A stretch of DNA of 64,000 bases from a bacterium (GTDB taxonomy: Bacteria; Vulcanimicrobiota; Xenobia; Xenobiales; JADMJV01). The DNA lies in the NCBI GenBank assembly GCA_030149525.1, contig JASBRJ010000054.1:599-64598 (forward strand), written 5' to 3'. Positions 13,784 through 32,253 of this stretch are shown in pieces; the stretch's first letter is position 1; each line of letters opens with the position of its first letter. A program made the position numbers and the translations under genes. A model generated the notes under the pieces. It had not been told where the DNA came from, ran no database searches, and saw only the letters and a list, made by a program, of their open reading frames with translations.

Positions 13784-13796
13784 CCGTGGCCGACGA

Positions 13797-13830
13797 AAAG
13801 ACCGGGTCTCACGACCCGGTCTTTTTTACT
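13797..13830. terminator. Bidirectional rho-independent terminator between two convergent genes
   Basis: AAAAGACCGGGTCTCACGACCCGGTCTTTTTT: a GC stem flanked by an A-run and a T-run. Confidence 0.7.
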
Positions 13831-18966: not shown

Positions 18967-20048
18967 AATTTGAACGGATAAAGAGACTAGCGCGCGCTCT
19001 AGGCTGGGGCTCCTGGCGTTGGCTTGCGCTAGAAAAAAAGTTGGCACGCAAGGTCCGCCGGACAGCCGACGGCGCCTTAACCTTGTATGATGACCTCATC
19101 GCCGATTTCCGGGATGTCGTTGTTTCTCCGGAAGGAGAGCTCTTCTGCTCCAGTGAGTTGCTCCAAGGCATCGACTCGCTGAATCTCGTCTCACCAGCCT
19201 CCAAATACCCGCCGGAGTTGCGCCTGCCGCAGCCCTGGCTTGACCGTTGTCGACTGGAGACGACAACGAAGGCCGAGGACACGCGCGAGGGGCTCACGGT
19301 AGCGATTCCTCGTTGCGAGTGGCTCAACTACTATCACTCCATGGTCGACCTCTATAACTGCTACTTTCTCGCGCGATTTCTTGGGGAGGCGCCATCTCAA
19401 ACCCGGATTCTCTTCCTTGACAGTCATGGGAAGAGCCCGTTCGAAGAGTTATGGGCAGCACAGTTTAAAGAGGTGCTGACCACGAACTTCCTGGAGACAA
19501 ATGTCAGATTCGAACGGCTGGCCGTCGGGCCTATCAACTACGAAAGCCCTTTCGGCCCGGGTTTGGGGCCTTCCCCGCCCTACTTCGAAGACTTTTCTAG
19601 GCTCTTTCAGAATCGCGATCAGGACCCTGACCAGTTGACATTCGTCAGTCGAAGCTTGGCCAGGCAGAGAAAGCTCGCTAATGAGGAAGAGCTCCTCCAA
19701 TGCCTCCGAGAGCGACTCCCTCAAGCCAGGATCGAGTCTGTTCTCTTTGAGCACCTTTCACCGTTGCAACAGATCGCGCTCATGAGCAGAACCAAGCTCC
19801 TTGTCGGCCTCCACGGTGCGGGACTCACGCACTCGCTCTTCCTACCTCAAGAGTCCGGCGTCTTTGAGATGTTTCCCGGGGTCCTCCATGCTTTTAGGGT
19901 GAACTTCTACAACATTGCCATATGGCGGAAGTTGTCCTACCGGCGCCATATCGACTGGAGCCGTCTAACCGAACCGGCTGAAGGTGATAATCATCTGCCA
20001 GTAGAGAGGGTGGCGGACAAAATCGCCGCACACTGGAATTCTCTGTAG
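18963..20048 (+). CDS. Glycosyltransferase family 61-like (DUF563) protein
   Basis: Motif LLVGLHGAGLTHSLFLPQESGVFEM matches the GT61/DUF563 signature (HGAGLTN...E). Overlaps the upstream gene by 4 nt. Confidence 0.55.
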   Translation: MKFERIKRLARALGWGSWRWLALEKKLARKVRRTADGALTLYDDLIADFRDVVVSPEGELFCSSELLQGIDSLNLVSPASKYPPELRLPQPWLDRCRLETTTKAEDTREGLTVAIPRCEWLNYYHSMVDLYNCYFLARFLGEAPSQTRILFLDSHGKSPFEELWAAQFKEVLTTNFLETNVRFERLAVGPINYESPFGPGLGPSPPYFEDFSRLFQNRDQDPDQLTFVSRSLARQRKLANEEELLQCLRERLPQARIESVLFEHLSPLQQIALMSRTKLLVGLHGAGLTHSLFLPQESGVFEMFPGVLHAFRVNFYNIAIWRKLSYRRHIDWSRLTEPAEGDNHLPVERVADKIAAHWNSL

Positions 20049-20060
20049 GGAAAGCTGACT

Positions 20061-21029
20061 ATGCAAAGCTCGCTCAACGCCTTAAAATCCTGGACTCGAC
20101 TGAGAATCTCCATTCTAGTGCAGTATCTTCAACACGCCCAGGCTTGGCTTAGAGACAAACTGAACCCACCCAGCTATTGGGACAAACCGGCTCGGGTCGG
20201 CGTTATGACTTGCACCCTCAATGAAGCAACATGCATCGGCTTCACCGTGGGCTCCCTTCTCGATCATGTGGACTTGTACGTGGTTATCGACACCGGGTCC
20301 ACCGATAACACGACCCAACTCCTCCGCGCTCTCTATCCCGAGGCTTTGAGCGAAGGGAAGCTCATTCTGGTGGAACTCGGTCCCTTGCCGGACTTCGACA
20401 TCAGCATAGCGAGAAATAAGGCTCTGAAAATCCTCCAAGAGCACAACATCGACCTTGCGTTCAAAGTCGACGGTGACGATGTCTTTTACGACGAAGGCGC
20501 CGCCTATCTTGTGAATCGAGTCCGAAAATGGTCACCTGAATTCGCTAGTTTCTATTGCGGAAACTATGAGCTTTACCAGTGGAAAGCCGAAGAGCGTGAT
20601 GCCTGGCTTGAAGCACTGGAGAGTCAAGCCGATATCTTTTGGACCATGGGTTTTCAACCGCTTCATCCTCGAGTCTACCCGGTGAAAGGTTCCGTAGCAC
20701 GAGGTCGTTGGACGGATGAGGCTCAAGGCCAGACTCCGGAAAACTTGTATAGCCGGCAAGCCGGGTCCCTCCGAAGAGGGACACTGAAGGTTTGCGCTGC
20801 CCACTACGGCTGGGCCAAACCGGTAAATGAGAAGATTCGCAAAGTGGAAATCTGGAACCCCGGGAAGAGCCTCGACCCGAGAGTCAAGACCATGCACGAA
20901 CGTTTCGACAGTCGATGGCCTCTCTCTCAATTTGAGAAACATCCCGAGATCGTAGCCCGGAAACTCCCAGCCGTCCGAGCCTTCTTCGCACGACTTGAGA
21001 ACGTCGACTCAATCCCAACCATCGAGTAG
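20061..21029 (+). CDS. Glycosyltransferase family 2-like protein
   Basis: GT-A fold signatures: VVIDTGSTDNT and the DXD-like FKVDGDDV. Confidence 0.55.
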   Translation: MQSSLNALKSWTRLRISILVQYLQHAQAWLRDKLNPPSYWDKPARVGVMTCTLNEATCIGFTVGSLLDHVDLYVVIDTGSTDNTTQLLRALYPEALSEGKLILVELGPLPDFDISIARNKALKILQEHNIDLAFKVDGDDVFYDEGAAYLVNRVRKWSPEFASFYCGNYELYQWKAEERDAWLEALESQADIFWTMGFQPLHPRVYPVKGSVARGRWTDEAQGQTPENLYSRQAGSLRRGTLKVCAAHYGWAKPVNEKIRKVEIWNPGKSLDPRVKTMHERFDSRWPLSQFEKHPEIVARKLPAVRAFFARLENVDSIPTIE

Positions 21030-21686
21030 GGTCTTCAAGAAACTCTTATGGAAGTCGTTCCAGGACTTCATTTGATGGAGGTATTGCTGCTTCCAGATTT
21101 CTGAGATCTCGTTGTCCGCCTCCATCTTGATCTGTCGGATCTGTTCAAAGGATTTCCGGTTCTCAGCCATCATCTCTTGATAGATTTCCTGAATTCTATT
21201 CTGCGTCTGCTGACGCTCTCGAGCCTCCTCCATGAGCTTCTCGCTCTTCAGAAAAGCAGCCGCCTTATCCACCACGGAAAGAGTTTTGGAGAGTTCCGGA
21301 TCCTCCTGAGAGGCCTGACGTAGTTCGCGGCGACTGAGCCCTGGGTGAGTTTGTCGAAGCTCTTCCATCCCTCGACGATAAGAAAGAGCGGCCAGAAAAG
21401 GACGGGAATCCTTCTCACCGGCTTGCTTGTCTGCTTCCCGAGCGATTTCACCCTGATCGTTTGTGGTGAATTTTTCGGCGAAAGCCTGTCCAAACTCGGC
21501 AAAGAGTTCGTCCCTGTCCTTGACTCGCTTCGGAAAGCGTCTAGAGGGCGCTGAAATCTCCACCGAGTCTTTGCGCTGTCGGGTTTGAGAGGTCTGAATT
21601 TGAGTGTTTCGGGCGGCTTGCTGTTGGAATTCGGTCTTGAGCATTCGGTTGTTACGTATATGTGAGTGGAGTCTTTTGATATTCAT
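21009..21686 (-). CDS. Hypothetical coiled-coil protein
   Basis: 225-aa ORF rich in E/K/R/Q with heptad-like stretches. Confidence 0.4.
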   Translation of the reverse strand: MNIKRLHSHIRNNRMLKTEFQQQAARNTQIQTSQTRQRKDSVEISAPSRRFPKRVKDRDELFAEFGQAFAEKFTTNDQGEIAREADKQAGEKDSRPFLAALSYRRGMEELRQTHPGLSRRELRQASQEDPELSKTLSVVDKAAAFLKSEKLMEEARERQQTQNRIQEIYQEMMAENRKSFEQIRQIKMEADNEISEIWKQQYLHQMKSWNDFHKSFLKTLLDGWD

Positions 21687-21873
21687 ACTTCAAGGGTAGG
21701 TAGCGGTGGCTAATGCGTTGTGTCTAAATCGTTTCCGGCATGTGTGCATAATGTTACAAAGTTTTGAACGACCCAGGTTTTATGCGGTTTCTGCTAACAA
21801 GTGGAAGACAAGACAACGTCTGAGACCCAGGCGCAAGGCAGGCAGAGCGTCCGGGAAGTCGAACTTTGAAGCA

Positions 21874-23796
21874 ATGGCCGAAATATCGCCTCTCAAGACG
21901 TCTCAGGCTCCCTTTCTGCGGAAGTCCCAAACAAAGCCAGTCAAACAAGACAAGGCTCCTACGGCCTTGCCCACCTCTCAGGAGCCCAGCGAGTCGTTCG
22001 AGCCCCAGAATGCCGCTCTGCCGCTCAATTTCAAGCCACAGTCTTCGCCTCAAGCGCCCCCGGTCTCCAAGCCCGAGGCCGGGCAAACAGGGCCGCCGGC
22101 AACAGCCGCTTCTTCCTCTGCTGTCATCAGCAACGACAAGGCAGGCGGCACTCTCACCCTTTTGGAAACCCCATTAACGTCAACCGCTTCAACGGAAAAA
22201 GGCGTTTCTCTGGTCGACCTGTTCGGACTCGACGATCCCAAGACCAACAACGGTTCGGCTCAGCGCATGGCCAAAGCCGAGGCCACCTATTTGCAGCGCT
22301 ATCCGTACAAAGAGGGTGAAAAGGCGGACCAAACTCGCCGTGAACTGTCCGAGCGCTATCATCATCCCAAGAACTCCACCCAGGCCTTTAGCCAACAATT
22401 GAATGATTTCGCAGCCTCCCGAGGAGTGCAGAAGAAGGCGCCCCACGGTTTCGACAAGCCGCTTGCGGAGGTGGGCATCGAGCAGGTCAAGCGAGCCCTT
22501 GCCCCCACTGTGGACGCCCTTTTTTCCAATCGAGAGTTCAACAACAACCCGGACAAGAAGCAGGTGGTTTCCGAGCAGGTGAATCGCTTCCTCGATCTGG
22601 TGGGAGAAGCTGCTCCCAAAGACTTAACCGCTGCCGACGCCTTCAAGATCGCCCAGGACAACACCGTTCTGGTGGCCTATCAAGACCGAGCCGCCGGGGA
22701 AGTTTTCATGGGAGATCACGGTGTGCGCCACTTACTCGGGCACAATATTCGCGTCTGTGAAGAGTTGGCCGACAAGGCTGTTGCCAAAGGGGCGCAAGTT
22801 ACGGCCAAAGATCGACTCGTTATGCATCAAGCCATGGTCATGCACGACTTGGGCTACGCCATGGATACGGTCAAGAACGGGATTCAGAAAGACGGTATCG
22901 CCGGTCAGGAAAACGGTCACAACGTTCTGGCCGCTCGCGTGCTGCGCGACCAAACCTCCGATCCCGAGCATCCACTTAACAAGCTTTTTGAAAAGCGGGA
23001 TCTTGAGCATATTCATGCCTGCATGCTTCACCACGACCGGGATGCCGAAGGCAAAGCCGGTATCGATCTCAGGCTGACCTCTCATCCCACCGAAGAAGAC
23101 CGCCGGGCGAACCTGGAAACCATGGTTCGAACCGCCGACAACACCCACGCCTTCGACGACAAGCTACCCGAACTGCTTCTTCAGGAGCCTCGCTCACTCA
23201 AGAGTCTTCGTATGATTCAAACGGCCGCCGAGATCGGCGACAAAACACTTTTTCGGGAACTCCAAGACGACCTCAAGTCCATGGTAGAGCAGAGAAAAGA
23301 TCTCGCTCCCGACGATCGCAAAGCTCTGGCAAGCTCGGTTGGCACCATCGACGAAGTGGCCCACAAGTTCAACGCCCGAAGGATCGCCGGACGTAGACCC
23401 ACTTATGAGATCAGCGATTCCGGCCAGATCACCGTGGGCGTCCAAGAGTCACCCATCCACCGACCCGTCTCCGCCCTCTTCGGACTACCCGCCTACAAAC
23501 AGATGGAGAATTTTGTTGAGGACAACGCCAGTCGCGAAGTGAAGCTCCAGGGTGGCAAAGAGAGAATCGAAGGTGACGGGATCAGCGTGGAGCTGGACCT
23601 GGGCGTGGCCTCCAAAGCCTCCAACCGCTTTGAGACTCAGATCCAGGATCAGGTCTTGAAAGATCGCGATTTCACAAGATTCGCTCTCCTGGACGCCCAG
23701 CTTTCGAAACAACAAAAATTAGTCGACAATCCGGACAAAATCATCGCTAAGCGCCGCCAACTTTTGCAAGATTATCGACAAAGCCAGACAGCATGA
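21874..23796 (+). CDS. Hypothetical protein with a disordered Pro/Ser-rich N-terminus and an HD-domain-like region
   Basis: The ORF is open from 21706, but a start at 21874 (MAEISPL) avoids junk-like N-terminal residues. HD-like motifs are present: GHNIRV, VMHDLGYA, HHDRD. Confidence 0.45.
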   Translation: MAEISPLKTSQAPFLRKSQTKPVKQDKAPTALPTSQEPSESFEPQNAALPLNFKPQSSPQAPPVSKPEAGQTGPPATAASSSAVISNDKAGGTLTLLETPLTSTASTEKGVSLVDLFGLDDPKTNNGSAQRMAKAEATYLQRYPYKEGEKADQTRRELSERYHHPKNSTQAFSQQLNDFAASRGVQKKAPHGFDKPLAEVGIEQVKRALAPTVDALFSNREFNNNPDKKQVVSEQVNRFLDLVGEAAPKDLTAADAFKIAQDNTVLVAYQDRAAGEVFMGDHGVRHLLGHNIRVCEELADKAVAKGAQVTAKDRLVMHQAMVMHDLGYAMDTVKNGIQKDGIAGQENGHNVLAARVLRDQTSDPEHPLNKLFEKRDLEHIHACMLHHDRDAEGKAGIDLRLTSHPTEEDRRANLETMVRTADNTHAFDDKLPELLLQEPRSLKSLRMIQTAAEIGDKTLFRELQDDLKSMVEQRKDLAPDDRKALASSVGTIDEVAHKFNARRIAGRRPTYEISDSGQITVGVQESPIHRPVSALFGLPAYKQMENFVEDNASREVKLQGGKERIEGDGISVELDLGVASKASNRFETQIQDQVLKDRDFTRFALLDAQLSKQQKLVDNPDKIIAKRRQLLQDYRQSQTA

Positions 23797-24143
23797 CAGA
23801 AGAAGCTCTGAGGCAGCGTCTCCAAAACTGGATGAACGCCTACTCTCTTCCCACGCTCAGCGACCCTTCTCGAGAGAAAGAGCAAGCCGGCTACGAAATG
23901 CTCCAGAACTTCTTGCTCCTGCTCCTCATCTGCGACCAGGAGGCGCCGGAAACTCCCGAGCAAGCCTTGCAGAAAGTGGCCGAGGGACACTCCTGGCCCG
24001 CGAGTCAGTCTCCCGCCGAAGTAGCCCTGGCCCTGGGCCTGGGTGACCCCGACAGTGAGCTTTTTGCTCTTCAACAAAACTTGCTTGAGAAGGTGCCTGA
24101 GGAGCGGCGGAGCTGGCTTTGGCAGTATGGGTATCTGAGTTAG
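23793..24143 (+). CDS. Hypothetical small protein, translationally coupled to the upstream gene
   Basis: ATGA start/stop overlap with the upstream gene. 116 aa. Confidence 0.4.
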   Translation: MTEEALRQRLQNWMNAYSLPTLSDPSREKEQAGYEMLQNFLLLLLICDQEAPETPEQALQKVAEGHSWPASQSPAEVALALGLGDPDSELFALQQNLLEKVPEERRSWLWQYGYLS

Positions 24144-24552
24144 TTTATAGCCCTTATGTGACGCGTGAAGCGATTCTAAAGGGGCTCTGCACCGGGCAGG
24201 AAGCGACTCTTCCAGTATTGGCACGTAGTGTTTCGGAAGTGACGGATCGGCGGGAGCGGATCTAGACTGCAGCAGAGATTCTCAAACTCACAGATGAGTG
24301 CTGGGGCAAAAGCCAGGACACGGAAATCGTTCAAATTAACCCTGATGGGACGATGACTTACGATATTGAATATTGGACCGGTGGTCGCCCATAGGTTGCC
24401 ATTATCCTAAATTTGGGAACTCGGGCTAAGCCGGTACCGCGCCGCCAAGGGCTTCGAGCAGTACTGGCGCTGAATTGACTTGCATCTGGCGAAGAAAGGA
24501 GTCAAGTCCCTGAATTCAGTATCGATCAGTTAGCAAGCGTGGCAGTTTGGTT

Positions 24553-24867
24553 TCATACACCTGTAATAAGCAGATCTAATGCGGCGAGTATCTCTGTTCG
24601 AAAGTTAGAGAGATTCTCGACCTGGCTGCTCAACTCACGTACGGGTATACCAGCGAGTTGGGGGGTGACCGCCACATGGTTCTGGCCCTGAACCGGGAGA
24701 ACCGGCATAAGTTGGGAGAGGATAATCTCTTTGGACTCGGTTTCGACAGCGAGGGGTATCACCACACGAGTTCCAATTGAGTCAAGAAGCTCCGCCTGAA
24801 CGTCAAGTAGATAAGGGAATCTCTTCTTGGTGGAAGCGTTCTTGTTTTCATAAACATCGAATTGCAC
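24553..24867 (-). CDS. ccdB: CcdB-family toxin (DNA gyrase poison)
   Basis: MQFDVYENK...RFPYLLDVQAELLDSIGTRVVIPL aligns by eye with F-plasmid CcdB ([36 protein letters not shown]). Confidence 0.8.
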   Translation of the reverse strand: MQFDVYENKNASTKKRFPYLLDVQAELLDSIGTRVVIPLAVETESKEIILSQLMPVLPVQGQNHVAVTPQLAGIPVRELSSQVENLSNFRTEILAALDLLITGV

Positions 24868-25118
24868 TAGAAGCTTCTCATTCCATCGCTGAACACGCCG
24901 TACTCTTCAACGTCCTGATTGTATTTGGCGATCGCATTCTTATTTTCTTCAAGCCAACTCTGAGCCTTAAGCTCTTTCACTTTCTGGGCCAATGATTGCT
25001 CCAGGACGGCAGAAAGGTTGATTCCCAACTGCTTAGCGTGGGCGAGTAGCTCGCTATTGACGCTCAGGTTCGCGGACTTCTTTGGCGCGCTCGAATCGTA
25101 AAGGTTAGACATGCGCAT
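24867..25118 (-). CDS. ccdA: CcdA-family antitoxin
   Basis: 83 aa, overlapping ccdB by 1 nt. The C-terminal WLEENKNAIAKYNQDVEEYGVFSDGMRSF resembles CcdA (WKAENQEGMAEVARFIEMNGSFADENRDW). Confidence 0.75.
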   Translation of the reverse strand: MRMSNLYDSSAPKKSANLSVNSELLAHAKQLGINLSAVLEQSLAQKVKELKAQSWLEENKNAIAKYNQDVEEYGVFSDGMRSF

Positions 25119-25135
25119 ATCTTATGCGCGCTCCA
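25105..25135 (-). promoter_or_regulatory. Palindrome overlapping the ccdA start; candidate autoregulatory operator
   Basis: GCGCATA-TCT-TATGCGC inverted repeat at 25113-25129, spanning the first ATG of ccdA. Confidence 0.35.
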
Positions 25136-25149
25136 GTTGAGTGTCAAGA

Positions 25150-25588
25150 AAATCAGAACTATATGGCGTAGGTCGCGGTAGGACCACCGGTCACCCGGCG
25201 CCCCCCGCACAGATCAGGACGTGAGGAATTACCTCATCCGGCTCCTGCCTCAGGTAATGACGCCAAACTGCTGTGTCGGATAAGGATGGACGACTTTGGG
25301 ACGGGGGATGTATTTCTCCGCCAGGCGTGTGATTCGTTGCCAGCTACATCGGTGTTTCTGGCTTCTCCGCCGTAACGACCGACACCAGAGGCGAACCACC
25401 TGATGTCGGAACGACTCGAGGGCCCTAAAGTTCATCGGAATACCGTGATACTGAAAGTAACCTCGGACGACCTGATTCTGCCATTTCCCGACGTCTGGTA
25501 CGCGGTCATGCAGGCGGCGACGGAGCTCAAACTTGAGCTCCCGTAGTTTGTCTCGTTGGCGCTTCTTCATCGTTTTGCGGAGTACCAT
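25150..25588 (-). mobile_element. Group II intron 3' remnant: maturase C-terminal fragment plus a domain-V-like motif, with the 5' part truncated
   Basis: The ORF at 25250-25588 encodes ...RGYFQYHGIPMNFRALESFRHQVVRLWCRSLRRRSQKHRCSWQRITRLAEKY, a typical C-terminus of group II intron RT/maturases. Five nt after its stop, the minus strand reads GAGCCGGAUGAGGUAAUUCCUCACGUCCUGAUC (25244..25212). This has the AGC triad, an inner hairpin and an AC bulge as in domain V. No RT domain is found upstream. Confidence 0.55.
25250..25588 (-). pseudogene. Truncated group II intron reverse transcriptase/maturase (C-terminal X/En-less fragment only)
   Basis: Only ~110 aa corresponding to the maturase C-terminus are present. 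The region upstream on the minus strand has no RT motifs. Confidence 0.55.
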
Positions 25589-25813
25589 GAACGCTCCCTT
25601 GCGAGTCTTGCCACAGATGTGGGTAAACCCGAGGAAGTCAAAAGTTTCCGGCTGTACACGTTCCAGTCAGAATTCATATACCGAGCCGTTTTCGCAGAGC
25701 CGCTATTCGAGCTTCTTGACTCCCATTCGAGGATTTTCCGATTGGTCTATTCCGTGTGCACCCCCTTCGGCGCAAGTGCTCAGGACATAACCTACGAGGG
25801 CAATCTTAGAGAA

Positions 25814-25860
25814 CCGGCAAGTGCGACAATTACCGGCAAGTGCGACAATTACCAGCAAAT
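25814..25860. repeat. 20-bp direct tandem repeat, about 2.3 copies
   Basis: CCGGCAAGTGCGACAATTAC is repeated twice perfectly, followed by a partial third copy (CAGCAAATGC). Confidence 0.7.
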
Positions 25861-26330
25861 GCAGAACTGCTAGCGTGTCGTTGAAAGTACAGTTGACAAA
25901 TCTGCAGGTGCACTGGACGTATTCCCCGGGCGAAGATATTGCTCCAGCGCAAACTGTCGCTGAAAAAACGATCGAGTTACTTGGCGAGGCAGGTTTCTCG
26001 GTGCTTCCTCTCGGCACTCACCTTATTACTTGGGCTGGACACTTAAAGTTAAGTGACATCACGCCGTCAGAGTATCTATCTCGATTTGTCTCCGGAGTAC
26101 CCATAGAGTTAGGCGCAACCGAGCCAGTTGGCGTCGGTTTTAGCAAGGAAGCTACCGATGAAAGACTCGCTTGTGCGATTAATTTTCAACCATCTATAGC
26201 CGTGGAGGATGGCATCTACAGTCGGTTTGATTTACAATGGAGCGGACAGCTTGGCATCAGTGACGTGGTTGAAAAGACCCGTACAGAGGTCTGGAAGACC
26301 CTGAAGTCTTGTGGGTTGATAGAGAAGTAG
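25821..26330 (+). CDS. Hypothetical orphan protein
   Basis: 169-aa ORF starting inside the tandem repeat. No recognisable family. The true start is uncertain. Confidence 0.3.
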   Translation: MRQLPASATITSKCRTASVSLKVQLTNLQVHWTYSPGEDIAPAQTVAEKTIELLGEAGFSVLPLGTHLITWAGHLKLSDITPSEYLSRFVSGVPIELGATEPVGVGFSKEATDERLACAINFQPSIAVEDGIYSRFDLQWSGQLGISDVVEKTRTEVWKTLKSCGLIEK

Positions 26331-26332
26331 CA

Positions 26333-26866
26333 ATGGTTATTGAAGCACAGAATTTAAGGTTAGAATTCGAGAACGGCAGAACCCAAGACCAATTGGCTCT
26401 ATTCCGGGTGAAAGAAACTCGGCGTCACGACTTTCTGGTTGATGAATATGGTCGGGGGCAACAAGCTTGTTTGACAGAAGAATTTGGAGAGGACGCACCT
26501 GTAAAACGTCGTTTACAGCCGGTTGCAAGTTCTGGAGTGAAAGCTCTTCTCAATCAGGGAAAGATTGAAAAGGCTGCACAGCTCTCGCAATCGTTACCTC
26601 GCGGAGCGCAGCTACGAGAGATAGCGAGTGTACTTGCTCCGCCTAAATTTCGATTTTCAAAGCGCCAAGAAAAGGCTAACCCAGCTCTGGATTACAATTG
26701 GCTTCGTGAAAATTATCAAGACTTTTGCGGTCAGTGGGTGGCTCTGAAGAATGGCCAACTCCAACGGTCGGCCGATAGCCTCCGTGAGCTAGTCTCTGGC
26801 CTGAGCAAACACGAGATTAGTGATTTTACGTTGGTTTATCAAGTTGATGATGCTCACAAGGTCTGA
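26333..26866 (+). CDS. Hypothetical protein with a C-terminal DUF5678-like domain
   Basis: C-terminus LDYNWLRENYQDFCGQWVALKNGQLQRSADSLRELVSGL fits the W..N...Y.G.WVAL.nG pattern of DUF5678. ATG at 26333 lies 2 nt after the upstream stop. Confidence 0.4.
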   Translation: MVIEAQNLRLEFENGRTQDQLALFRVKETRRHDFLVDEYGRGQQACLTEEFGEDAPVKRRLQPVASSGVKALLNQGKIEKAAQLSQSLPRGAQLREIASVLAPPKFRFSKRQEKANPALDYNWLRENYQDFCGQWVALKNGQLQRSADSLRELVSGLSKHEISDFTLVYQVDDAHKV

Positions 26867-27302
26867 TGGCACGTTCTTTTCCCGCGGATGCCTGCCCTAT
26901 CTCGACCAAAGACCTGATGAGCCGGATGGAAACTCTAAGATTCATTTGCCGGTTCGTTTTCTGAACAGAGACCTCAGCATCCGAACCCTGTGCCTGATTG
27001 ATACTAGAGCCGATTGGTCTGCACTGGACTGGAGCCTCGCACAGCAGCTGGGATGTCAAGACCTGCCTAGTTGTGGCGAAGTCACGGACCTCACCAGATT
27101 TGGTAGGCTTAAAGGTCAACTTTTTCGACTCGGATTTTCGATCGAAGCCGAAGAGGGAGAGTCGATGGAGGCCGAAGGTGCCTTTTGGGTATCCGAGGAG
27201 TGGACGACAGGTATATCAATTCTGGGCTTCAATGGCTTTCTGAGCCATTTGCGGTTTGCTGTTGACCCCTTCAAGAATCGTTTCTACTTCGGTTGTGGAT
27301 GA
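26850..27302 (+). CDS. Retropepsin-like (clan AA) aspartic-protease-fold protein with DTR in place of the catalytic DTG
   Basis: IRTLCLIDTRADWSALDWSLAQQLG matches the bacterial retropepsin-like signature hh.DTGAs.s.i..la..lG, but with Gly replaced by Arg. Confidence 0.4.
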   Translation: MLTRSDGTFFSRGCLPYLDQRPDEPDGNSKIHLPVRFLNRDLSIRTLCLIDTRADWSALDWSLAQQLGCQDLPSCGEVTDLTRFGRLKGQLFRLGFSIEAEEGESMEAEGAFWVSEEWTTGISILGFNGFLSHLRFAVDPFKNRFYFGCG

Positions 27303-27601
27303 CTTGGTCCCCTATAGGTCCCCAAACTGTGGGGACCAGTCCAGTCCGTCCAAAGAAGAATCTTGGAGAAGCCAATAACCACGGCGTTCAGGCTCGACCA
27401 TTGCGCACGGTTAGCTTACTGGACTCTAACATGGCGAATGTTCAAGTCAATCTTACGGCAAATCGAGATAGGCAGTGTTCCCAGATATGAACTTGACTTG
27501 GTCATTCGACATCCCCTGCTTGTTTGCGAATGCTTGGATTTCGGATGTGATCTTTGGGCCGAGGTCATAGGTAGAATTTTCCCGCTCTAGAAGATTCAGG
27601 A

Positions 27602-28885
27602 GTGAATTCCCTAGACGAAGAGCAAGAACTGGATCGCCCTCACAACCCTCTGGGCGATTGGCTCCAATCCTTGAGCTCCGCTGGTGAGATGAAGTCGGAG
27701 GGGAGTGGTTTTAGCATTGCCCAGGAGAAGGCCTGGGAAAAGCTTGGCGCCTTTCAGCTTCCCTTCGAGAGCGCCTGGGTCCTCAAAGTCGTGCAAGCCG
27801 CGGTGGTAGGTGGGGCGTTGTCCATTGAAGTTGTGCAGACACGCTCGGAGACTCATTTTACTCTTTCGAGTCTGGCGGGAGTGACCTGGAATTCCGTGCA
27901 AAAGCTCTTATTCGAAGTGGATTCCGCTTCCGAATCTGCATCGAGCCATTTGGCGGTCGCGTTTCGAACACTTGCAAAATCTGTGGGAAATCCGTTCTTT
28001 GTGAACTTTCCCGGCGACTCTGTCGTGGTTTGGGACGGTTCAGCTTTTCAGGCGGCCGATCCAACATCGGATATCTTCGAGATCAAAATTTCCCACTTTC
28101 TCTCCACCGGAGTTTTTAAAGCGATTCGCTTCATGACCGGGATTCAAAAGGCGTTGTGTGACTACTGTCATCTTTGCCCCATACCGCTTAGCATCGATAA
28201 TCGAGCGATCAATTCTCTGGTGGACGATCCCCTCTGTAGGCCTTCTGCGGATTGCTCGCTGCTAGCTTTTCAGACAGCGAAGGTAAGCGACGATCTACCG
28301 AGACTCAAGCTTCCCTCGACCGACTGGAACGCTCTTCACCCGGACGGTGCTAGACCATCCTTAGATTTTGAGTCGGCCTTCAGAGAGAGCGACGAAGAGT
28401 GTGGTGCGGGGATGCTGCTCTGTGGCTTCCGAAAGGTTATTCACGGGGGTGAGCAATACTTTCGGTCCTACCGAAAGTCGAGTGAGTTGATTTGGCTACG
28501 CCACGGTGTGATAGTGGCCAGAGAATCTCTCAATATTGCCCAGTCGGTGGCACTCCTGCTGATAGTCAATGCCGAGTGCCTGGATACCGACCTGACCGGC
28601 TTCGATTTGAGAAAAAACGATCGCAAAATGAGCCGTCGCAACGCGGCTATTGAATCAGCTTTTTCAGCGCTGAAGGAATTGAAGAGTAGGAGCCGGGTCA
28701 AGCTTCAGGGACGCAATAGCTTTATGTCCTTACTCGGCTGGGGCGGCATCGCGTTAACGGTCTTGATTCCTCCCGCAGGCCTCGCTCTTTGGGGGCTCAG
28801 AGCTTCTGCGCTGCGCGAAGACCAGGAGCGGATTGCCAAGGAATTCGACAACGGCCTGAGCCGTGTTTTTGCGAATCTCCGATAG
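27602..28885 (+). CDS. Hypothetical protein, 427 aa, with a C-terminal transmembrane segment
   Basis: Protein-like ORF with a C-terminal hydrophobic stretch (FMSLLGWGGIALTVLIPPAGLALWGL). It immediately precedes the PilT-like pair. Confidence 0.5.
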   Translation: MNSLDEEQELDRPHNPLGDWLQSLSSAGEMKSEGSGFSIAQEKAWEKLGAFQLPFESAWVLKVVQAAVVGGALSIEVVQTRSETHFTLSSLAGVTWNSVQKLLFEVDSASESASSHLAVAFRTLAKSVGNPFFVNFPGDSVVVWDGSAFQAADPTSDIFEIKISHFLSTGVFKAIRFMTGIQKALCDYCHLCPIPLSIDNRAINSLVDDPLCRPSADCSLLAFQTAKVSDDLPRLKLPSTDWNALHPDGARPSLDFESAFRESDEECGAGMLLCGFRKVIHGGEQYFRSYRKSSELIWLRHGVIVARESLNIAQSVALLLIVNAECLDTDLTGFDLRKNDRKMSRRNAAIESAFSALKELKSRSRVKLQGRNSFMSLLGWGGIALTVLIPPAGLALWGLRASALREDQERIAKEFDNGLSRVFANLR

Positions 28886-29052
28886 AGTGCGGAGCGGGTT
28901 TGAGGCAAGAGCGGCGGGCCTTGGAGGGAGCTAGCTCTGTTGGCGAGTGAGGGGCAATTCCACAGCAGGAGAGTCGGCAATTATTGTCCGACGTGTGGGA
29001 GTAGACGTTTCCCAGAGGGTGCCCCTAACAGCCACCGCGAAGAATCTTTCCG

Positions 29053-30123
29053 ATGGCCACTCAATTTACGGAAATCCGCCTGGATTCACTGCTCCTTCAG
29101 GCTCGAGAAATGGGAGCGGAAGACATCCACCTGCAGGCGGGCTCTCCGCCTCTTTTCAGAGTTTTCGGAGACCTCAAGGCGCGCCAGAATAAGAACGTCA
29201 GCATGGAGGCGTTGTACGATCTTTTGGGTCGAATGTTGGAACCGGAACAACTCCCTCTGCTGGAGAAGCAAAGGCGGCTACGCTGGGTACATTGGGCCTC
29301 CGACGATCGGCTGGTGCGGTGCCAGGCTAGCAAATGGCCCAGCGGCTGCACTCTCACTCTGCGCCTCCTCCGAGAGGAACCGCTCCCGCTAGAAGAACTT
29401 GGGTGGGACTCGCACCTGCCCAACCTGCTTGAAGGCTCGGGCCTGATACTTCTGACAGGTCACGCTGGAAGCGGGGTGAGTACGACCCTGGCCTCACTGG
29501 TGAATCTCCTGAATATGACTTCCCGACAACACATTTTGTGCTTGGAGCATGATCTCGAGATAATGCACCCCTACAAGCTCTCTATGATCAACCAGCGCTG
29601 TTTCGATCGCGACTTCGACTGCTGGAAACAGGCGGTTGGTCAGGCCGCCCGCCAAGAGGTAGACACTCTAGTGCTTCACGACGCCCCGTTGAAGGAGGTT
29701 TGGAGCGAGCTTTGTTCTTTTTTAGACGGCGGTGGTCTAGCACTTGTGACCATGAGAGCGTCAAGTGTTTACCGGGCCCTGGAAAGCCTACCCGACTTCT
29801 ATCCGCCCGCAGAGCAACAGTGGGTCCGCCCTCATCTTAGCCGATACCTCGCCGGTGCCACCCATCAGCGCTTGGTGACGGGCAAGCAGGCTCGATACAT
29901 GGCAGGCGCGCTGCTGACCGCCACATTAGGCATCAGAAATCTGTTACTTGAGAACAAGCTTCGGCAGCTCTCTCGCGCCATGGCCTCGAATCCGACCTGC
30001 CGAACTTTGGAGCAAAGCCTTTGCCTGCTGGTGCAAGACGGCACTCTCCGGGCAGAGGAAGCCCTGGCCGTCAGCGACTACCCCGAAGAACTGAAGAGTT
30101 TACTCGCTGGAGGTGCAAGTTGA
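29053..30123 (+). CDS. PilT-like type IV pilus retraction ATPase homologue with a degenerate Walker A (Lys replaced by Val) and degenerate Asp/His boxes
   Basis: PilT N-domain signature DIHLQAGSPPLFRVFGDL is present. The Walker A region reads GHAGSGVSTTLASLVNLLN where canonical PilT has GPTGSGKSTTLAAMLDYLN. EDPIEF is replaced by EHDLEI, GEMRD by HDAPL, and the His box is absent. Confidence 0.7.
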   Translation: MATQFTEIRLDSLLLQAREMGAEDIHLQAGSPPLFRVFGDLKARQNKNVSMEALYDLLGRMLEPEQLPLLEKQRRLRWVHWASDDRLVRCQASKWPSGCTLTLRLLREEPLPLEELGWDSHLPNLLEGSGLILLTGHAGSGVSTTLASLVNLLNMTSRQHILCLEHDLEIMHPYKLSMINQRCFDRDFDCWKQAVGQAARQEVDTLVLHDAPLKEVWSELCSFLDGGGLALVTMRASSVYRALESLPDFYPPAEQQWVRPHLSRYLAGATHQRLVTGKQARYMAGALLTATLGIRNLLLENKLRQLSRAMASNPTCRTLEQSLCLLVQDGTLRAEEALAVSDYPEELKSLLAGGAS

Positions 30124-31187
30124 GGCAAAACTGGAATCTGAGAGAGCTCTTCACATTGGCTTTAGAAGCCGGAGGCACAAGCCTTCATCTCAACAGCGCA
30201 CTCCCGGCGGTGGCCAAGACCAAAGGCGGCTTGGTGCCACTGACCGAGCAATACCTGACTCCAGACGACTGTGAAGACATAGCGGCCACGCTTTCGACCC
30301 AGGCCGTACATCGTCTGAAGCAGGAGAGTTTCTATGGCCTGGAGCCGGGAATTTGTCGATATCGAGCGGAGCTGTATCGCCAACGAGACGTAATCAGCCT
30401 GATTTTTAAGCTGGCCCCCTGGCGACTGCGCCCTCTAGAAGAACTAGGGTTGCCGCCGAACGTTCCCGAGCTTCTACAGGCACGGCGAGGGCTCATACTC
30501 GTATGCGGCCCCCAGGGAGCGGGCAAGAGTTGGACTCTAGCCGCTCTGCTTGACTATATACATCGGCAGCGGTCTGTTCGGAGCCTTGTGCTGGGCGACC
30601 CGTTGGAGTTTGAGCTTGAAGCCCGACTTGGCATGACAACCACTCAGTCGGTGAAGCAGGGTCACTGGGAGGAGGCCTTAGACCAGATAGAATTCTCCGA
30701 CGTGGACGTGGTAGCGCTCGACGATTTTCCAGTTCGCAGAACCCTTGAAAGAGCACTTGAGTTGGCCGAGGCCGGCATCCTGGTTCTGGCCACTGTTCGC
30801 AACGCCCTCGACGTTAGCAGCAGTCTCTTTGAGCTGTGGACCAAACACCCGGCCTGGCTTCATCACAGCCTGAGAGAACGAGTCAGCCAAGCCCTCCAGG
30901 CAATAATTTTTCAGAAGTTAGTAGCGGGCATGACAGACCAGGAAAAATTCCCGGCAACCGAGATTATGTTGGCGAGTCCCCCGATGCGCCACCTCATCCA
31001 AGAAGAGCGATTCATTCAGTTCTACAACTCTATCCAAACTGGTCTGAACTCCGGGATGCACACTCTTGAGCAATCCCTGTTCGAGTTATTCCGTTCCGGA
31101 TGTATCGACGAGAAAACGGCCCTCTCCGAAACCCGTTACCCGGACGACGTGAGACGAAGCATCGGGACGTGGCGGAGTCGAGATTGA
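30120..31187 (+). CDS. Second PilT-like ATPase homologue, with Walker A intact and the Walker B Glu and His box degenerate
   Basis: Probable TTG start overlapping the upstream stop (TTGA). GLILVCGPQGAGKSWTLAALLDYIH is the Walker A. DVDVVALDDFPV replaces DPDVILVGEMRD, and ATVRN replaces GTLHT. Confidence 0.65.
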   Translation: MRQNWNLRELFTLALEAGGTSLHLNSALPAVAKTKGGLVPLTEQYLTPDDCEDIAATLSTQAVHRLKQESFYGLEPGICRYRAELYRQRDVISLIFKLAPWRLRPLEELGLPPNVPELLQARRGLILVCGPQGAGKSWTLAALLDYIHRQRSVRSLVLGDPLEFELEARLGMTTTQSVKQGHWEEALDQIEFSDVDVVALDDFPVRRTLERALELAEAGILVLATVRNALDVSSSLFELWTKHPAWLHHSLRERVSQALQAIIFQKLVAGMTDQEKFPATEIMLASPPMRHLIQEERFIQFYNSIQTGLNSGMHTLEQSLFELFRSGCIDEKTALSETRYPDDVRRSIGTWRSRD

Positions 31188-31200
31188 CGCTCCTAAAAGT

Positions 31201-31674
31201 CTAGCAACCCGCCTCCCTACGACGGTCTGCCGGTCTGAGCCTTGCCAACTCCCTGGCCGAGGCGGTGCTGAGATATTGCGGGTCGGGAGTTTTGCCGACC
31301 CTGTCGAGATCGAGGCGGTCCGAATCCCAGCAGGTGCCGACGGTCGGGTCTTCCGTCAGACGGCCCTTTTCATGATCTCGGCAGGCCAGGGCTAAGAGCT
31401 CTAATCGATGTGGCTCCAGCTGAAAGTAGTCTCCACAGAGCGTGCGGGCTATCAGTTCTGCACGCTCTCCGTGGAGTGGGTCGTGACCGTCGGATTCTCT
31501 CTGACTGTCGTGAAGCCAGGCAAAAAGCCGTACAATTATAATATCGGCCCCGTTGATTGGGGCCAAATACATTCCGTACCTTTCGACTCGACGCCAATGG
31601 TCTTGATCATGCGCACTGAAGTTGCCCAACTTGAAACCTGATATCAGATGACGCTGGAGTCTTTCCCAATCCAT
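31201..31674 (-). CDS. HD-domain-like phosphohydrolase family protein
   Basis: Motifs HDQDHWRRV and LFAWLHD (His...His-Asp) are typical of small HD-domain proteins. Confidence 0.5.
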   Translation of the reverse strand: MDWERLQRHLISGFKLGNFSAHDQDHWRRVERYGMYLAPINGADIIIVRLFAWLHDSQRESDGHDPLHGERAELIARTLCGDYFQLEPHRLELLALACRDHEKGRLTEDPTVGTCWDSDRLDLDRVGKTPDPQYLSTASARELARLRPADRRREAGC

Positions 31675-31932
31675 TTTTTGCGGCTTCGTCAGGAGCGGGA
31701 ACTTTCCCGGAATGGCGACTGCCGGGCCTTGAACGCTGCCGAATCAAATTTAATATTGAACCAAAGTTGCCAAAAAACTCAACACAGGCTAATGTCTGGA
31801 AGTCGTCACGGTTCCCGATACCGTTGACCACAGACAGATTAGTTCAGATCCTTCTCAGATTGGTTTTCTGCTATCTCTCTCAGTGGCCGATCTTCGCATC
31901 CCGGACGTTATAAAATTAGGAGGATCATTATT

Positions 31933-32199
31933 ATGAATCTTTATGTTGGAAATCTATCTTACGACTTGACCGAAAAAGACCTGAGCAACGCTTTTGGAGA
32001 CTACGGTATCGTTACTTCTGCCCGCATCATCACCGATCGTGAAACCGGTAAGAACCGTGGCTTCGCTTTCGTTGAAATGGAAGAAAAAAGCGCCGGCCTC
32101 AACGCTATTGAAGGCTTGAACCAAAAAGAACTCTTCGGTCGCCGACTGATCGTGAACGAAGCCAAGCCTAAAGCTAGCCGTGAGCGCGCTCGCTGGTAA
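31933..32199 (+). CDS. RRM-type RNA-binding protein
   Basis: RNP2 motif LYVGNL and RNP1 motif RGFAFVEM. An AGGAGGA Shine-Dalgarno sits 8 nt upstream. Confidence 0.9.
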   Translation: MNLYVGNLSYDLTEKDLSNAFGDYGIVTSARIITDRETGKNRGFAFVEMEEKSAGLNAIEGLNQKELFGRRLIVNEAKPKASRERARW

Positions 32200-32224
32200 G
32201 CGGTTGTAGGATTTGCTACGAAAA

Positions 32225-32253
32225 AGGCCACCTTCCGGGGTGGCCTTTTTTAT
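32225..32253. terminator. Bidirectional rho-independent terminator
   Basis: AAAAAGGCCACCTTCCGGGGTGGCCTTTTTTATTT sits between convergent genes. Confidence 0.75.

What the first reader, a model, noticed from the sequence alone, without database searches (positions are those of the whole stretch)
26333..27337. DUF5678-like protein overlapping a retropepsin-like protein with DTR instead of DTG, closed by a perfect hairpin
The two ORFs overlap by ~17 nt, so are likely co-translated. The second has the retropepsin fold signature but with the catalytic-triad glycine replaced by arginine, which would make it inactive or substrate-binding only. Immediately after its stop there is a perfect 8-bp-stem hairpin GGTCCCCA-AACTG-TGGGGACC (27317-27337) without a T-tract. 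Such a small two-gene module next to a toxin-antitoxin pair and an intron scar could be an uncharacterised toxin-antitoxin, defence or abortive-infection pair.
Basis: inference. Interest (0 to 1): 0.55.

Follow-up and report, generated by a model that had tools for sequence, protein, structure and literature searches.

The report
Decaying retropepsin protease–DUF5678 partner cassette
The two overlapping genes are a real, widely conserved but unstudied bacterial pairing of a small HIV-protease-like enzyme with a DUF5678 partner protein (usually preceded by a third unknown gene). The odd "DTR" active site is a private mutation of this one genome, in a copy that appears to be breaking down.

Summary
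The sequence features are real: ORF B (26333-26866), ORF C (26847-27302), a 17-20 nt overlap, D-T-R at C residues 52-54, and an 8-bp hairpin at 27317-27337.

Neither window protein hits Pfam directly, but both domain calls hold at family level.
- C belongs to a ~145-aa family (444 50%-identity representatives). 49 of 63 members hit Asp_protease_2, and its AF2 model (pLDDT 93) matches FIV protease and Rickettsia APRc.
- B belongs to a family in which 16 of 18 and 21 of 28 members hit DUF5678.

The pair is strongly conserved: B lies directly upstream of C in 94 of 95 loci. A third unknown gene, A (~220 aa), precedes B in 61 of 77 loci. The unit is therefore a B-C core, usually an A-B-C operon.

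DTR is not a family trait. The family column is G 220, A 42, R 3. All sister-strain alleles, seen on more than 50 contigs, read DTG.

Against its sisters the window copy carries only G54R, Y81D, one intergenic SNP and a 19-nt duplication that frameshifts A. It is probably a decaying copy.

The hairpin is not more than chance would give and is not conserved in other loci. No known defence or TA family matches.

Function is untested. My best guess is a protease with a cognate regulator or pseudosubstrate, in a TA-like cassette.

The parts
25637..25873 (+). Gene A, 5' fragment. It has the native N-terminus (V/M-KSFRLYTFQSEF...) and runs into a premature stop after the frameshift.
   Evidence: It aligns with the N-termini of A orthologues and scores E=6e-28 against the A-family HMM. 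Sister strains carry an IS66 inserted at 25652/25653, which is codon 6.
25816..25854 (+). A 19-nt near-perfect tandem duplication (GGCAAGTGCGACAATTACC x2) that frameshifts gene A. It is private to this window.
   Evidence: The DNA alignment with L001/L002 shows a single 19-nt insertion at 25836-25854.
25821..26330 (+). Gene A, 3' fragment: 169 codons, equal to residues ~74-242 of the sister-strain A. The family has no known domain.
   Evidence: The A-family HMM gives E=7e-76. A orthologues lie directly upstream of B in 61 of 77 loci. There is no Pfam, NCBIfam or PDB sequence hit.
26333..26866 (+). Gene B (177 aa). It has a variable N-terminus, a conserved helical segment and a C-terminal DUF5678-like domain.
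   Evidence: It scores E=1.4e-24 against a B-family HMM built without it. It is 100% identical to the sister-strain B. B lies directly upstream of C in 94 of 95 loci.
26630..26653 (+). Conserved linear motif in B (V-L-A-P-P-K-F-R, aa 100-107; family consensus L-A-x-P-x-V-R) between the helical part and the DUF5678 domain. It is a candidate protease-binding or cleavage segment (inference).
   Evidence: Alignments A4 and A8 and the 85-sequence consensus.
26690..26842 (+). DUF5678-like domain of B (aa 120-170: DYNWLRENYQDFCGQWVALKNGQL...SLRELV...LVYQ).
   Evidence: 16 of 18 full-length B orthologues (best E=5.6e-8) and 21 of 28 diverse B tails (E<0.01, best 1.3e-8) hit PF18929. The window copy itself is below detection.
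26847..27302 (+). Gene C (151 aa), a retropepsin-like aspartic protease. It overlaps the end of B by 20 nt (17 nt from the second ATG).
   Evidence: 444 family representatives. 49 of 63 members hit PF13650. The family profile hits the Ddi1 RVP domain at 8.6e-4. The AF2 model has pLDDT 93.4. Foldseek top hits are FIV protease (1.4e-4) and Rickettsia APRc (1.5e-4).
27006..27008 (+). Codon AGA = R54, in the D-T-G position. Sister strains have GGA (Gly).
   Evidence: The family column reads G 220, A 42, R 3, S 1.
27087..27089 (+). Codon GAC = D81. Sister strains have TAC (Tyr). The family column is hydrophobic (L/I/M/Y/V).
27317..27337 (+). Perfect 8-bp hairpin with a 5-nt loop and no T-tract. It may be a 3'-end stem-loop of the transcript. 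It is lineage-specific.
   Evidence: the 91-nt region folds with z=-3.7. It is not enriched over chance and is not conserved in other loci.

Best explanation
SHOWN. The finding is the B-C core of a conserved, uncharacterised cassette, usually a three-gene operon A-B-C.
- C is a ~145-aa cytoplasmic retropepsin-fold aspartic protease. Its family keeps an invariant Asp in a D-T-G/A-A motif and the C-terminal hydrophobic-Gly motif.
- B is a basic protein with a variable N-terminus, a helical segment, a conserved L-A-x-P-x-V-R linear motif and a C-terminal DUF5678 domain.
- A is a ~220-aa protein with no recognisable domain.
- The cassette is patchily distributed in Acidobacteriota, Nitrospirota, Binatia, Deltaproteobacteria MAGs and this marine Phycisphaerales lineage.
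- The window copy carries private lesions: a frameshift in A, plus G54R in the catalytic motif and Y81D in C. It is most likely an inactivated, decaying copy. DTR is a lesion, not a design.

INFERRED (mechanism).
- In intact copies C acts as a homodimeric aspartic protease, as retropepsins do.
- B is its dedicated partner. It docks through the DUF5678 domain and presents the extended L-A-x-P-x-V segment to the active-site cleft as a pseudosubstrate inhibitor and/or cleavable regulator.
- Protease activity would then be gated by the B:C ratio, which is a toxin-antitoxin-like or stress/infection-triggered logic.
- A, where present, would be an accessory effector or substrate.

My confidence in the identity and decay statements is about 0.85. 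My confidence in the regulatory/TA-like mechanism is about 0.3. The single figure given (0.5) is a compromise between the two.
For: Identity of C:
- The exhaustive phmmer search found 444 representatives at E<1e-3. The profile search found 930 clusters.
- 49 of 63 members hit PF13650 and 46 of 63 hit PF13975.
- The family profile hits the Ddi1 RVP domain in PDB.
- The AF2 model has pLDDT 93.4 and matches FIV, HTLV, APRc and Ddi1 proteases.

Identity of B:
- Family membership at E=1.4e-24.
- DUF5678 hits in 16 of 18 and 21 of 28 relatives.

Linkage:
- B lies upstream of C in 94 of 95 loci and A upstream of B in 61 of 77.
- The distance from the B stop to the C stop is mostly 443-472 nt. For a C gene of about 440 nt this implies a gap of roughly 5-20 nt between B and C.
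- Stand-alone B-C loci exist (L005, L032, L073-L111).
- Charges are complementary: B median +6, C median -8. None of the three has a TM or signal-like segment.

Decay:
- Over 25653-27438 the window differs from sister strains by only 3 SNPs and one 19-nt insertion. Two of the SNPs are radical changes at conserved C positions, and the insertion frameshifts A.
- All six other members of the 90% cluster read DTG.

Context:
- The cassette sits next to CcdAB, an intron remnant, IS66 and IS110 here.
- Elsewhere it sits next to PIN-Phd, PemK, ParE-like, RE_endonuc, SLFN_AlbA_2 and DDE transposases.
- GC drops to 0.47-0.52 over about 24250-28250, against 0.56-0.59 in the flanks.
Against: - No experiment or complex model supports a B-C interaction, cleavage or toxicity.
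- B has no detectable DNA-binding domain of the kind typical of type II antitoxins.
- There are no hits in PADLOC, PHROGs or plasmids.
- Several loci lie in housekeeping or metabolic contexts: def-fmt...rsmE in L005, acyl-CoA dehydrogenases in L030, an ABC transporter in L031.
- The private lesions could be MAG consensus errors, because the DTR allele is seen on one contig only.
- In sister strains the IS66 replaces only the first 6 codons of A, so A may still be functional there. Decay is therefore shown only for the window allele.
- The single-sequence model of B was unusable (pLDDT 38.6), and A could not be modelled.
Confidence: 0.5

Rival explanations
1. One reading: C is an evolved pseudo-protease. 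The DTR would make it a substrate-binding-only subunit working with B as a two-gene TA or defence pair.
For: DTR is really in the sequence. Two other family members (P0024, P0032) also read DTR, so Arg at this position recurs occasionally.
Against: R occurs in only 3 of 266 family sequences, and Asp is invariant. All other alleles of this very gene in the population read DTG. The change co-occurs with Y81D and a frameshift in A within a stretch that is otherwise 99.8% identical. That pattern looks like loss of function, not neofunctionalisation.
Confidence: 0.05
2. The cassette is an ordinary cellular regulatory or processing protease. C matures or degrades a specific cytoplasmic substrate, possibly A. 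B is an adaptor, chaperone or substrate-recruitment factor. There is no addiction or defence role.
For: Several loci are in housekeeping or metabolic neighbourhoods. Characterised bacterial retropepsin-like enzymes such as RimB and the Pseudomonas Rlo proteins have physiological roles (PMC11957791 and PMC12239564, found). There are no PADLOC hits.
Against: Distribution is very patchy: only 16 hits among 185,579 species genomes, using two peptide patterns drawn from one acidobacterial subfamily. The cassette often lies next to TA, IS or restriction genes. It sits in a low-GC island. It is readily lost or damaged in this population. All of this fits an accessory or selfish cassette better than a core function.
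Confidence: 0.3
3. The unusual features (DTR, Y81D, the frameshift in A) are assembly or consensus artefacts of the MAG, and the real genome carries an intact A-B-C operon.
For: The DTR allele (P0001) is recorded on a single NCBI contig, whereas DTG alleles are on more than 50 contigs. MAG consensus sequences can mix strains.
Against: The window allele also differs structurally from all the others: it has no IS66 at 25653. It therefore represents a genuinely distinct lineage. A 19-nt tandem duplication is not a typical short-read error. This rival bears only on the lesions, not on what the cassette is.
Confidence: 0.15
4. The cassette belongs to an already described TA or anti-phage system, or is a relic of the neighbouring retroelement. 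A retropepsin next to a group II intron remnant might suggest a retroelement protease.
For: A C orthologue gives weak PADLOC matches to the candidates PDC-M08B and PDC-M52B (E=0.004 and 0.035, over about 25 residues around DTG). The intron remnant is adjacent.
Against: The matches are below significance and cover only the DTG motif. A and B have no PADLOC hits. None of the other ~100 loci has an intron or reverse transcriptase next to the cassette. Group II introns do not encode proteases (established knowledge).
Confidence: 0.03

Closest known systems
Bacterial retropepsin-like aspartic proteases: Rickettsia APRc (PDB 5c9f), Pfam Asp_protease_2 / gag-asp_proteas, clan AA
   Same: The fold is the same (Foldseek E=1.5e-4). 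The family shares the D-T-G-A motif and the C-terminal hydrophobic-Gly motif, is a single domain of ~130-150 aa, and most members match PF13650/PF13975.
   Different: APRc is membrane-associated, whereas C has no hydrophobic segment. C has a conserved ~30-residue N-terminal extension and an obligate DUF5678 partner gene. The window copy itself fails the Pfam models and the DTG motif.
RimB of the RimABK system (Pseudomonas; PMC11957791)
   Same: It is a small cytoplasmic retropepsin-like protease encoded in a three-gene operon, and it acts on a partner or substrate encoded by or linked to that operon.
   Different: The partners are an EAL protein (RimA) and an ATP-grasp ligase (RimK). A and B show no such domains, and there is no sequence relationship beyond the superfamily.
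Eukaryotic Ddi1 RVP domain and retroviral proteases (FIV, HTLV, HIV)
   Same: The family profile hits the Ddi1 RVP domain (E=8.6e-4). The fold match to FIV protease is the best hit. The sister allele reads L-I-D-T-G-A-D, like HIV-1 protease (L-L-D-T-G-A-D; from memory).
   Different: C is a stand-alone bacterial protein with no polyprotein or UBL/UBA context. Sequence identity is 14-22% only.
Type II toxin-antitoxin modules, and co-encoded protease-inhibitor pairs such as staphopain-staphostatin (from memory)
   Same: It has two small, co-directional, tightly spaced or overlapping genes with complementary charges. It is patchily distributed, often sits next to other TA or IS genes, and is easily lost.
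   Different: No toxin of the retropepsin type is known. B lacks a recognisable DNA-binding domain. A third gene is usually present. Toxicity and neutralisation are untested.
PADLOC candidate systems PDC-M08 and PDC-M52 (component B)
   Same: Weak local similarity around the DTG motif (E=0.004 and 0.035), suggesting that those candidates also contain small retropepsin-like proteins.
   Different: The matches are not significant and cover only ~25 residues. The window proteins and the A and B orthologues have no PADLOC hit.

Membership tests
Retropepsin-like aspartic protease (clan AA; PF13650/PF13975) | Catalytic D-T/S-G(-A) motif | tested here: not met
   The window copy reads D52-T53-R54-A55. 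Sister alleles read DTGA. The family column is D 266/266, T 260, G 220, A 42, R 3. The feature is met by the family and lost in this copy.
Retropepsin-like aspartic protease (clan AA; PF13650/PF13975) | Retropepsin fold (six-stranded beta-barrel half of pepsin, with flap hairpin) | tested here: met
   The AF2 model has pLDDT 93.4 and pTM 0.85. The top Foldseek PDB hits are all retroviral or retropepsin-like proteases (5fiv, 5c9f, 2b7f, 2i1a), with probability 1.00.
Retropepsin-like aspartic protease (clan AA; PF13650/PF13975) | Profile match at or near the curated threshold | tested here: inconclusive
   The window protein has no hit even at E<=10. 49 of 63 relatives match PF13650 at E<0.1, best 5.2e-8. 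Precomputed Pfam hits exist for many relatives.
Retropepsin-like aspartic protease (clan AA; PF13650/PF13975) | Homodimerisation to form the two-Asp active site; proteolytic activity | not testable with these tools
   This needs a multimer model or biochemistry.
DUF5678 (PF18929) | Profile match to the 49-position model (W...Y.G.WVA...G.L motif) | tested here: inconclusive
   Window B has no hit at E<=10. 16 of 18 orthologues (best 5.6e-8) and 21 of 28 tails at E<0.01 match. Window B joins that orthologue family at E=1.4e-24. The motif NWLRENYQDFCGQWVALKNGQL is visible in the sequence.
Type II toxin-antitoxin system | Two adjacent co-directional small genes, translationally coupled, conserved as a pair | tested here: met
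   The genes overlap by 17-20 nt here. The implied gap in other loci is roughly 5-20 nt. Pair conservation is 94 of 95 loci.
Type II toxin-antitoxin system | Antitoxin with a DNA-binding domain (RHH/HTH/AbrB/Phd) for autoregulation | tested here: not met
   The B family has no such Pfam hit. hhalign against a Phd/YefM protein gave probability 0.05. There is only a non-significant resemblance to TTHA1013 (E=0.86).
Type II toxin-antitoxin system | Toxin arrests growth and cognate antitoxin neutralises it | not testable with these tools
   This requires expression experiments.
Known anti-phage defence systems (PADLOC-DB v2) | Significant profile match of the components to one system | tested here: not met
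   The window proteins and the A and B orthologues have no hits. One C orthologue has weak local hits only.
Intrinsic (Rho-independent) terminator | GC-rich stem-loop followed by a T-tract | tested here: not met
   The hairpin at 27317-27337 is followed by AGTCCAGTCC and was not called by the terminator scan. Genuine terminators in the window have 12-13 bp stems flanked by A/T runs (13796-13825 and 32221-32250).

The most novel reading that the evidence does not exclude
The DUF5678-retropepsin pair (with or without gene A) is a new class of protease-based toxin-antitoxin or abortive-infection cassette. In it a cytoplasmic retropepsin-like homodimer is held in check by a DUF5678 pseudosubstrate partner and is released on stress or infection. 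This would be the first bacterial immunity or addiction module built on an HIV-protease-like enzyme.
Probability: 0.2. Interest if true: 0.75.

Novelty: new variant of a known kind. Interest (0 to 1): 0.45.

Why it matters
Bacterial retropepsin-like proteases are numerous, yet only a handful (APRc, RimB, PerP, SpoIIGA, Rlo) have a known role.

This work defines a distinct, widespread family: at least 444 representatives at 50% identity and 930 clusters at 90%. The family has a near-obligate DUF5678 partner, which gives the orphan domain DUF5678 its first concrete functional context. It also has a frequent third gene of completely unknown fold.

If B proves to be a dedicated inhibitor or pseudosubstrate, the cassette would be a simple, genetically tractable model for how retropepsin activity is gated in cells, and possibly a new TA or defence architecture.

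For this particular window the practical message is more modest. The 'DTR' curiosity is a lesion in a decaying copy and should not be read as a designed pseudo-enzyme.

Tried and rejected
- Direct Pfam and NCBIfam scans of both window proteins, including at E<=10 and on the B tail alone: nothing.
- phmmer of C against PDB: nothing.
- Word-indexed homologue search with either single protein: only the self cluster.
It worked with the subfamily alignments A3 and A7.
- Single-sequence AF2 model of B: pLDDT 38.6, unusable.
- PADLOC, PHROGs and plasmid tblastn with A, C and the DUF5678 tail: no meaningful hits.
- Literature searches for DUF5678, PF18929 and TIGR03698, for retropepsin with toxin-antitoxin, and for aspartyl protease with defence island: nothing relevant.
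- B against Phd/YefM by hhalign: no relation.
- PDB profile search with the DUF5678 region: only non-significant hits, YflH at 0.43 and TTHA1013 at 0.86.
- Search for an alternative conserved upstream partner in loci lacking A: none found.
- The idea that the hairpin is an IS110 target: rejected, because the IS110 in sister strains sits about 100 nt further downstream at ~27438.
- The idea that the hairpin is a repeated REP-like element: rejected, because the window has a single copy.
Full report
**1. What is in the sequence**

The stretch 26333-27337 holds two plus-strand ORFs. B runs 26333-26866 (177 aa, ATG start). C runs 26847-27302 (151 aa, or 150 aa from the second ATG at 26850). They overlap by 20 or 17 nt in different frames.

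C reads ...L-C-L-I-D-T-R-A-D-W..., so the 'DTR' is real (codon AGA, 27006-27008). Fifteen nucleotides after the TGA stop lies GGTCCCCA-AACTG-TGGGGACC (27317-27337), a perfect 8-bp stem with no T-tract. The 91 nt around it fold better than shuffles (z=-3.7).

On the neighbours, CcdB (E=3e-33) and CcdA (E=2e-27) are solid. The 'intron scar' is supported by a maturase X-domain fragment (25250-25588, minus strand; GIIM E=0.005). Immediately 3' of it is a group II intron D5/D6 match (25172-25246, minus strand; 30.5 bits, E=0.004, below the gathering score).

Exact-sequence look-up identifies the source as a marine Phycisphaerales MAG.

**2. Is it more than chance?**

The hairpin is not. The window contains about ten distinct perfect hairpins with stems of 8 bp or more and loops of 3-8 nt. 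These give 15 raw hits when loop-length variants of one hairpin are counted separately, against a mean of 7.7 raw hits (range 1-13) in first-order Markov shuffles.

The terminator scan did not call the hairpin. The genome's evident terminators have 12-13 bp stems flanked by A/T runs (13796-13825 and 32221-32250). No comparable hairpin is conserved after C in 17 other loci. I treat it as a possible 3' stem-loop specific to this lineage, not as a defining part of the module.

**3. Domain assignments**

Neither window protein matches Pfam, NCBIfam or PDB sequences, even at E<=10. The word-indexed search found only their own 90% clusters. The exhaustive phmmer search with C found 444 representatives at E<1e-3 and 97 at E<1e-10. 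A profile of 63 of them then recovered 930 clusters.

*C family.*
- 49 of 63 members hit PF13650 (Asp_protease_2) and 46 of 63 hit PF13975.
- The family profile hits the Ddi1 retroviral-protease-like domain in PDB at 8.6e-4.
- An AF2 model of the window protein, built with a 105-sequence alignment, has pLDDT 93.4 and pTM 0.85.
- Its best PDB matches are FIV protease (1.4e-4), Rickettsia APRc (1.5e-4), HTLV protease and Ddi1.

*B family.*
- The orthologues recovered from related loci hit PF18929 (DUF5678) in 16 of 18 cases (best 5.6e-8).
- 21 of 28 diverse C-terminal tails hit it at E<0.01.
- The window B scores E=1.4e-24 against a B-family HMM built without it.
- 'DUF5678-like' is therefore also right, at family level.

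**4. The real unit: a B-C core, usually an A-B-C operon**

I collected loci in three ways: exact look-up of family members, a GTDB genome scan and a metagenome scan. I then searched their ORFs with HMMs of the three families.

- Among 95 loci with at least 400 nt upstream of C, 94 have a B-family gene ending at the C start.
- Among 77 loci with room, 61 have a third family, A (~220 aa), directly upstream of B.
- The loci without A have short B proteins (123-185 aa) and no alternative conserved partner.
- The distance from the B stop to the C stop is mostly 443-472 nt. For a C gene of about 440 nt this implies a gap of roughly 5-20 nt.
- A has no Pfam, NCBIfam or PDB sequence match.
- None of the three proteins has a TM-like or signal-like hydrophobic stretch.
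- B is basic (median net charge +6) and C is acidic (median -8).
- B contains a conserved linear motif, L-A-x-P-x-V-R (window: V-L-A-P-P-K-F-R, aa 100-107), between its helical segment and the DUF5678 domain.
- Carriers include Vicinamibacterales, Bryobacterales, Thermoanaerobaculaceae, Nitrospira, Binatia and Deltaproteobacteria MAGs.

**5. The DTR is a private lesion in a damaged copy**

All six other members of C's 90% cluster read L-I-D-T-G-A-D and T-Y-L-T-R-F. One of these alleles is on 43 contigs and another on 9. Only the window's allele, seen on one contig, reads DTR and T-D-L-T-R-F.

Across 266 aligned family members the motif columns are D 266, T 260, and G 220 / A 42 / R 3 / S 1. 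Position 81 is hydrophobic (L/I/M/Y/V).

DNA alignment with the sister-strain contigs shows that 25653-27438 differs by only three SNPs and one insertion:
- 27006 G>A, giving G54R.
- 27087 T>G, giving Y81D.
- 27345, which is intergenic.
- A 19-nt near-perfect tandem duplication (25816-25854).

The duplication frameshifts gene A, splitting it into 25637-25873 and 25821-26330. The glycine of D-T/S-G is needed for the active-site loop and 'fireman's grip' of retropepsins (established knowledge). An arginine there, a charged residue in a buried hydrophobic column and a broken first gene together read as loss of function.

The sister strains, from many ocean metagenomes, instead carry a 2.6-kb IS66 inserted at codon 6 of A. 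This gives a chimeric 242-aa A. About half of them also carry an IS110 about 100 nt downstream of the hairpin.

The locus is therefore a hotspot of rearrangement within a low-GC island: 0.47-0.52 against 0.56-0.59 in the flanks.

Caveat: because the DTR allele is seen once, a consensus artefact cannot be excluded without the reads. However, the allele is structurally distinct because it lacks the IS66, so it represents a real separate lineage.

**6. How it most likely works**

*Shown.* This is a tightly linked, cytoplasmic, patchily distributed cassette. Its invariant core is a retropepsin-like protease plus a DUF5678 protein.

*Inferred.*
- C acts as a homodimeric aspartic protease.
- B is its cognate partner. 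The DUF5678 domain docks on C. The conserved extended L-A-x-P-x-V segment occupies the substrate cleft as an inhibitor and/or is cleaved.
- Activity would then depend on the B:C balance.
- A, where present, is an effector or substrate.

The gene order, coupling, complementary charge and patchiness are TA-like or defence-like. So is the frequent adjacency to:
- CcdAB here.
- PIN-Phd.
- PemK.
- ParE-like and Fic.
- A restriction-endonuclease-like gene.
- SLFN_AlbA_2.
- Transposases.

The easy loss in this population points the same way.

Against this reading:
- B has no DNA-binding domain.
- No PADLOC, PHROG or plasmid hits were found.
- Several contexts are housekeeping or metabolic.

I put about 0.3 on the TA-like gating model and about 0.3 on an ordinary regulatory or processing protease with an adaptor. 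The rest is unknown. A non-significant resemblance of the DUF5678 region to TTHA1013 (E=0.86) is a lead only. From memory, TTHA1013 has a HicB-N/UPF0150-like fold.

**7. Comparison with what is known, and novelty**

The closest structures are APRc and the retroviral and Ddi1 proteases. The closest operon analogy is RimABK, which has a retropepsin-like RimB (PMC11957791). Neither shares the partners.

Searches for DUF5678 and PF18929 found nothing relevant in the literature. The cassette as a unit appears undescribed. I rate it a new variant of a known kind: a retropepsin-like protease system with a novel obligate partner.

The window's own copy is ordinary in the sense that its headline oddity is a mutation.

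**8. Verdict**

The domain calls and the conserved pair hold. The pseudo-protease reading and the hairpin do not. The TA/defence function is untested.
- Interest is 0.45. The family and its DUF5678 linkage are worth an experiment, but this locus is a degraded example.

Noticed in passing
window 25172-25588 (-): This is the 3' remnant of a group II intron. It has a D5/D6 RNA match (Rfam RF00029, 30.5 bits, below gathering) next to a 112-aa maturase X-domain fragment (GIIM E=0.005). It ends about 50 nt from the native start of gene A and is also present in the sister strains.
   Followed up: partly
window 25652/25653 and ~27438; loci L001-L004, L114-L123: There are insertion polymorphisms in the population. 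All sister-strain contigs carry a 2.6-kb IS66 (three ORFs) inserted at codon 6 of gene A. About half also carry an IS110 about 100 nt downstream of the hairpin. The window allele lacks both and is the rare form.
   Followed up: partly
window 20001-25653 versus 25653-32000: Identity to the sister strains is uneven: about 96% upstream (219 mismatches in 5.6 kb), 99.8% across A-B-C, and about 99% downstream. This suggests recombination or different histories on the two sides of the IS66 site.
   Followed up: no
window 24250-28250: A low-GC island (0.47-0.52 against 0.56-0.59 in the flanks) spans ccdAB, the intron remnant, A-B-C and the start of the 427-aa ORF.
   Followed up: no
window 27602-28885 (+), 29053-31187 (+): A 427-aa ORF has no Pfam, NCBIfam, PADLOC or PHROG match. 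It is followed by two T2SSE (PilB/PilT-like) ATPase genes. This arrangement is conserved in the sister strains but is not part of the cassette elsewhere.
   Followed up: partly
window 13796-13825 and 32221-32250: Two long perfect palindromes (12-13 bp stems) are flanked by A-runs and T-runs. They look like bidirectional intrinsic terminators and show what terminators look like in this genome.
   Followed up: no
L008 3171-3992 (B orthologue): The variable N-terminus of this acidobacterial B contains an internal tandem repeat of about 70 aa (PEFLVEDNSGSVLS.IERAG...FGFQ.RPRFARRP, twice). B N-termini vary widely in length (123-319 aa overall).
   Followed up: no
C family (P0024, P0032; 42 DTA members): Two other family members independently read DTR, and 16% read DTA instead of DTG. 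DTA occurs in both A-B-C and B-C architectures. Whether DTA proteins are active is unknown.
   Followed up: partly
A family alignment (A5): Gene A orthologues keep a small set of near-invariant polar residues (D49, H127 and S178 in L011 numbering) and a G.G...YFG motif. This hints at an enzyme, but no fold or family could be assigned.
   Followed up: partly
window 21706-23796 (+) and 23793-24143 (+): A 696-aa ORF with a proline/serine-rich N-terminus and an overlapping 116-aa ORF (weak VMAP-M1 hit, E=0.56) lie upstream of ccdAB. They were not examined further.
   Followed up: no
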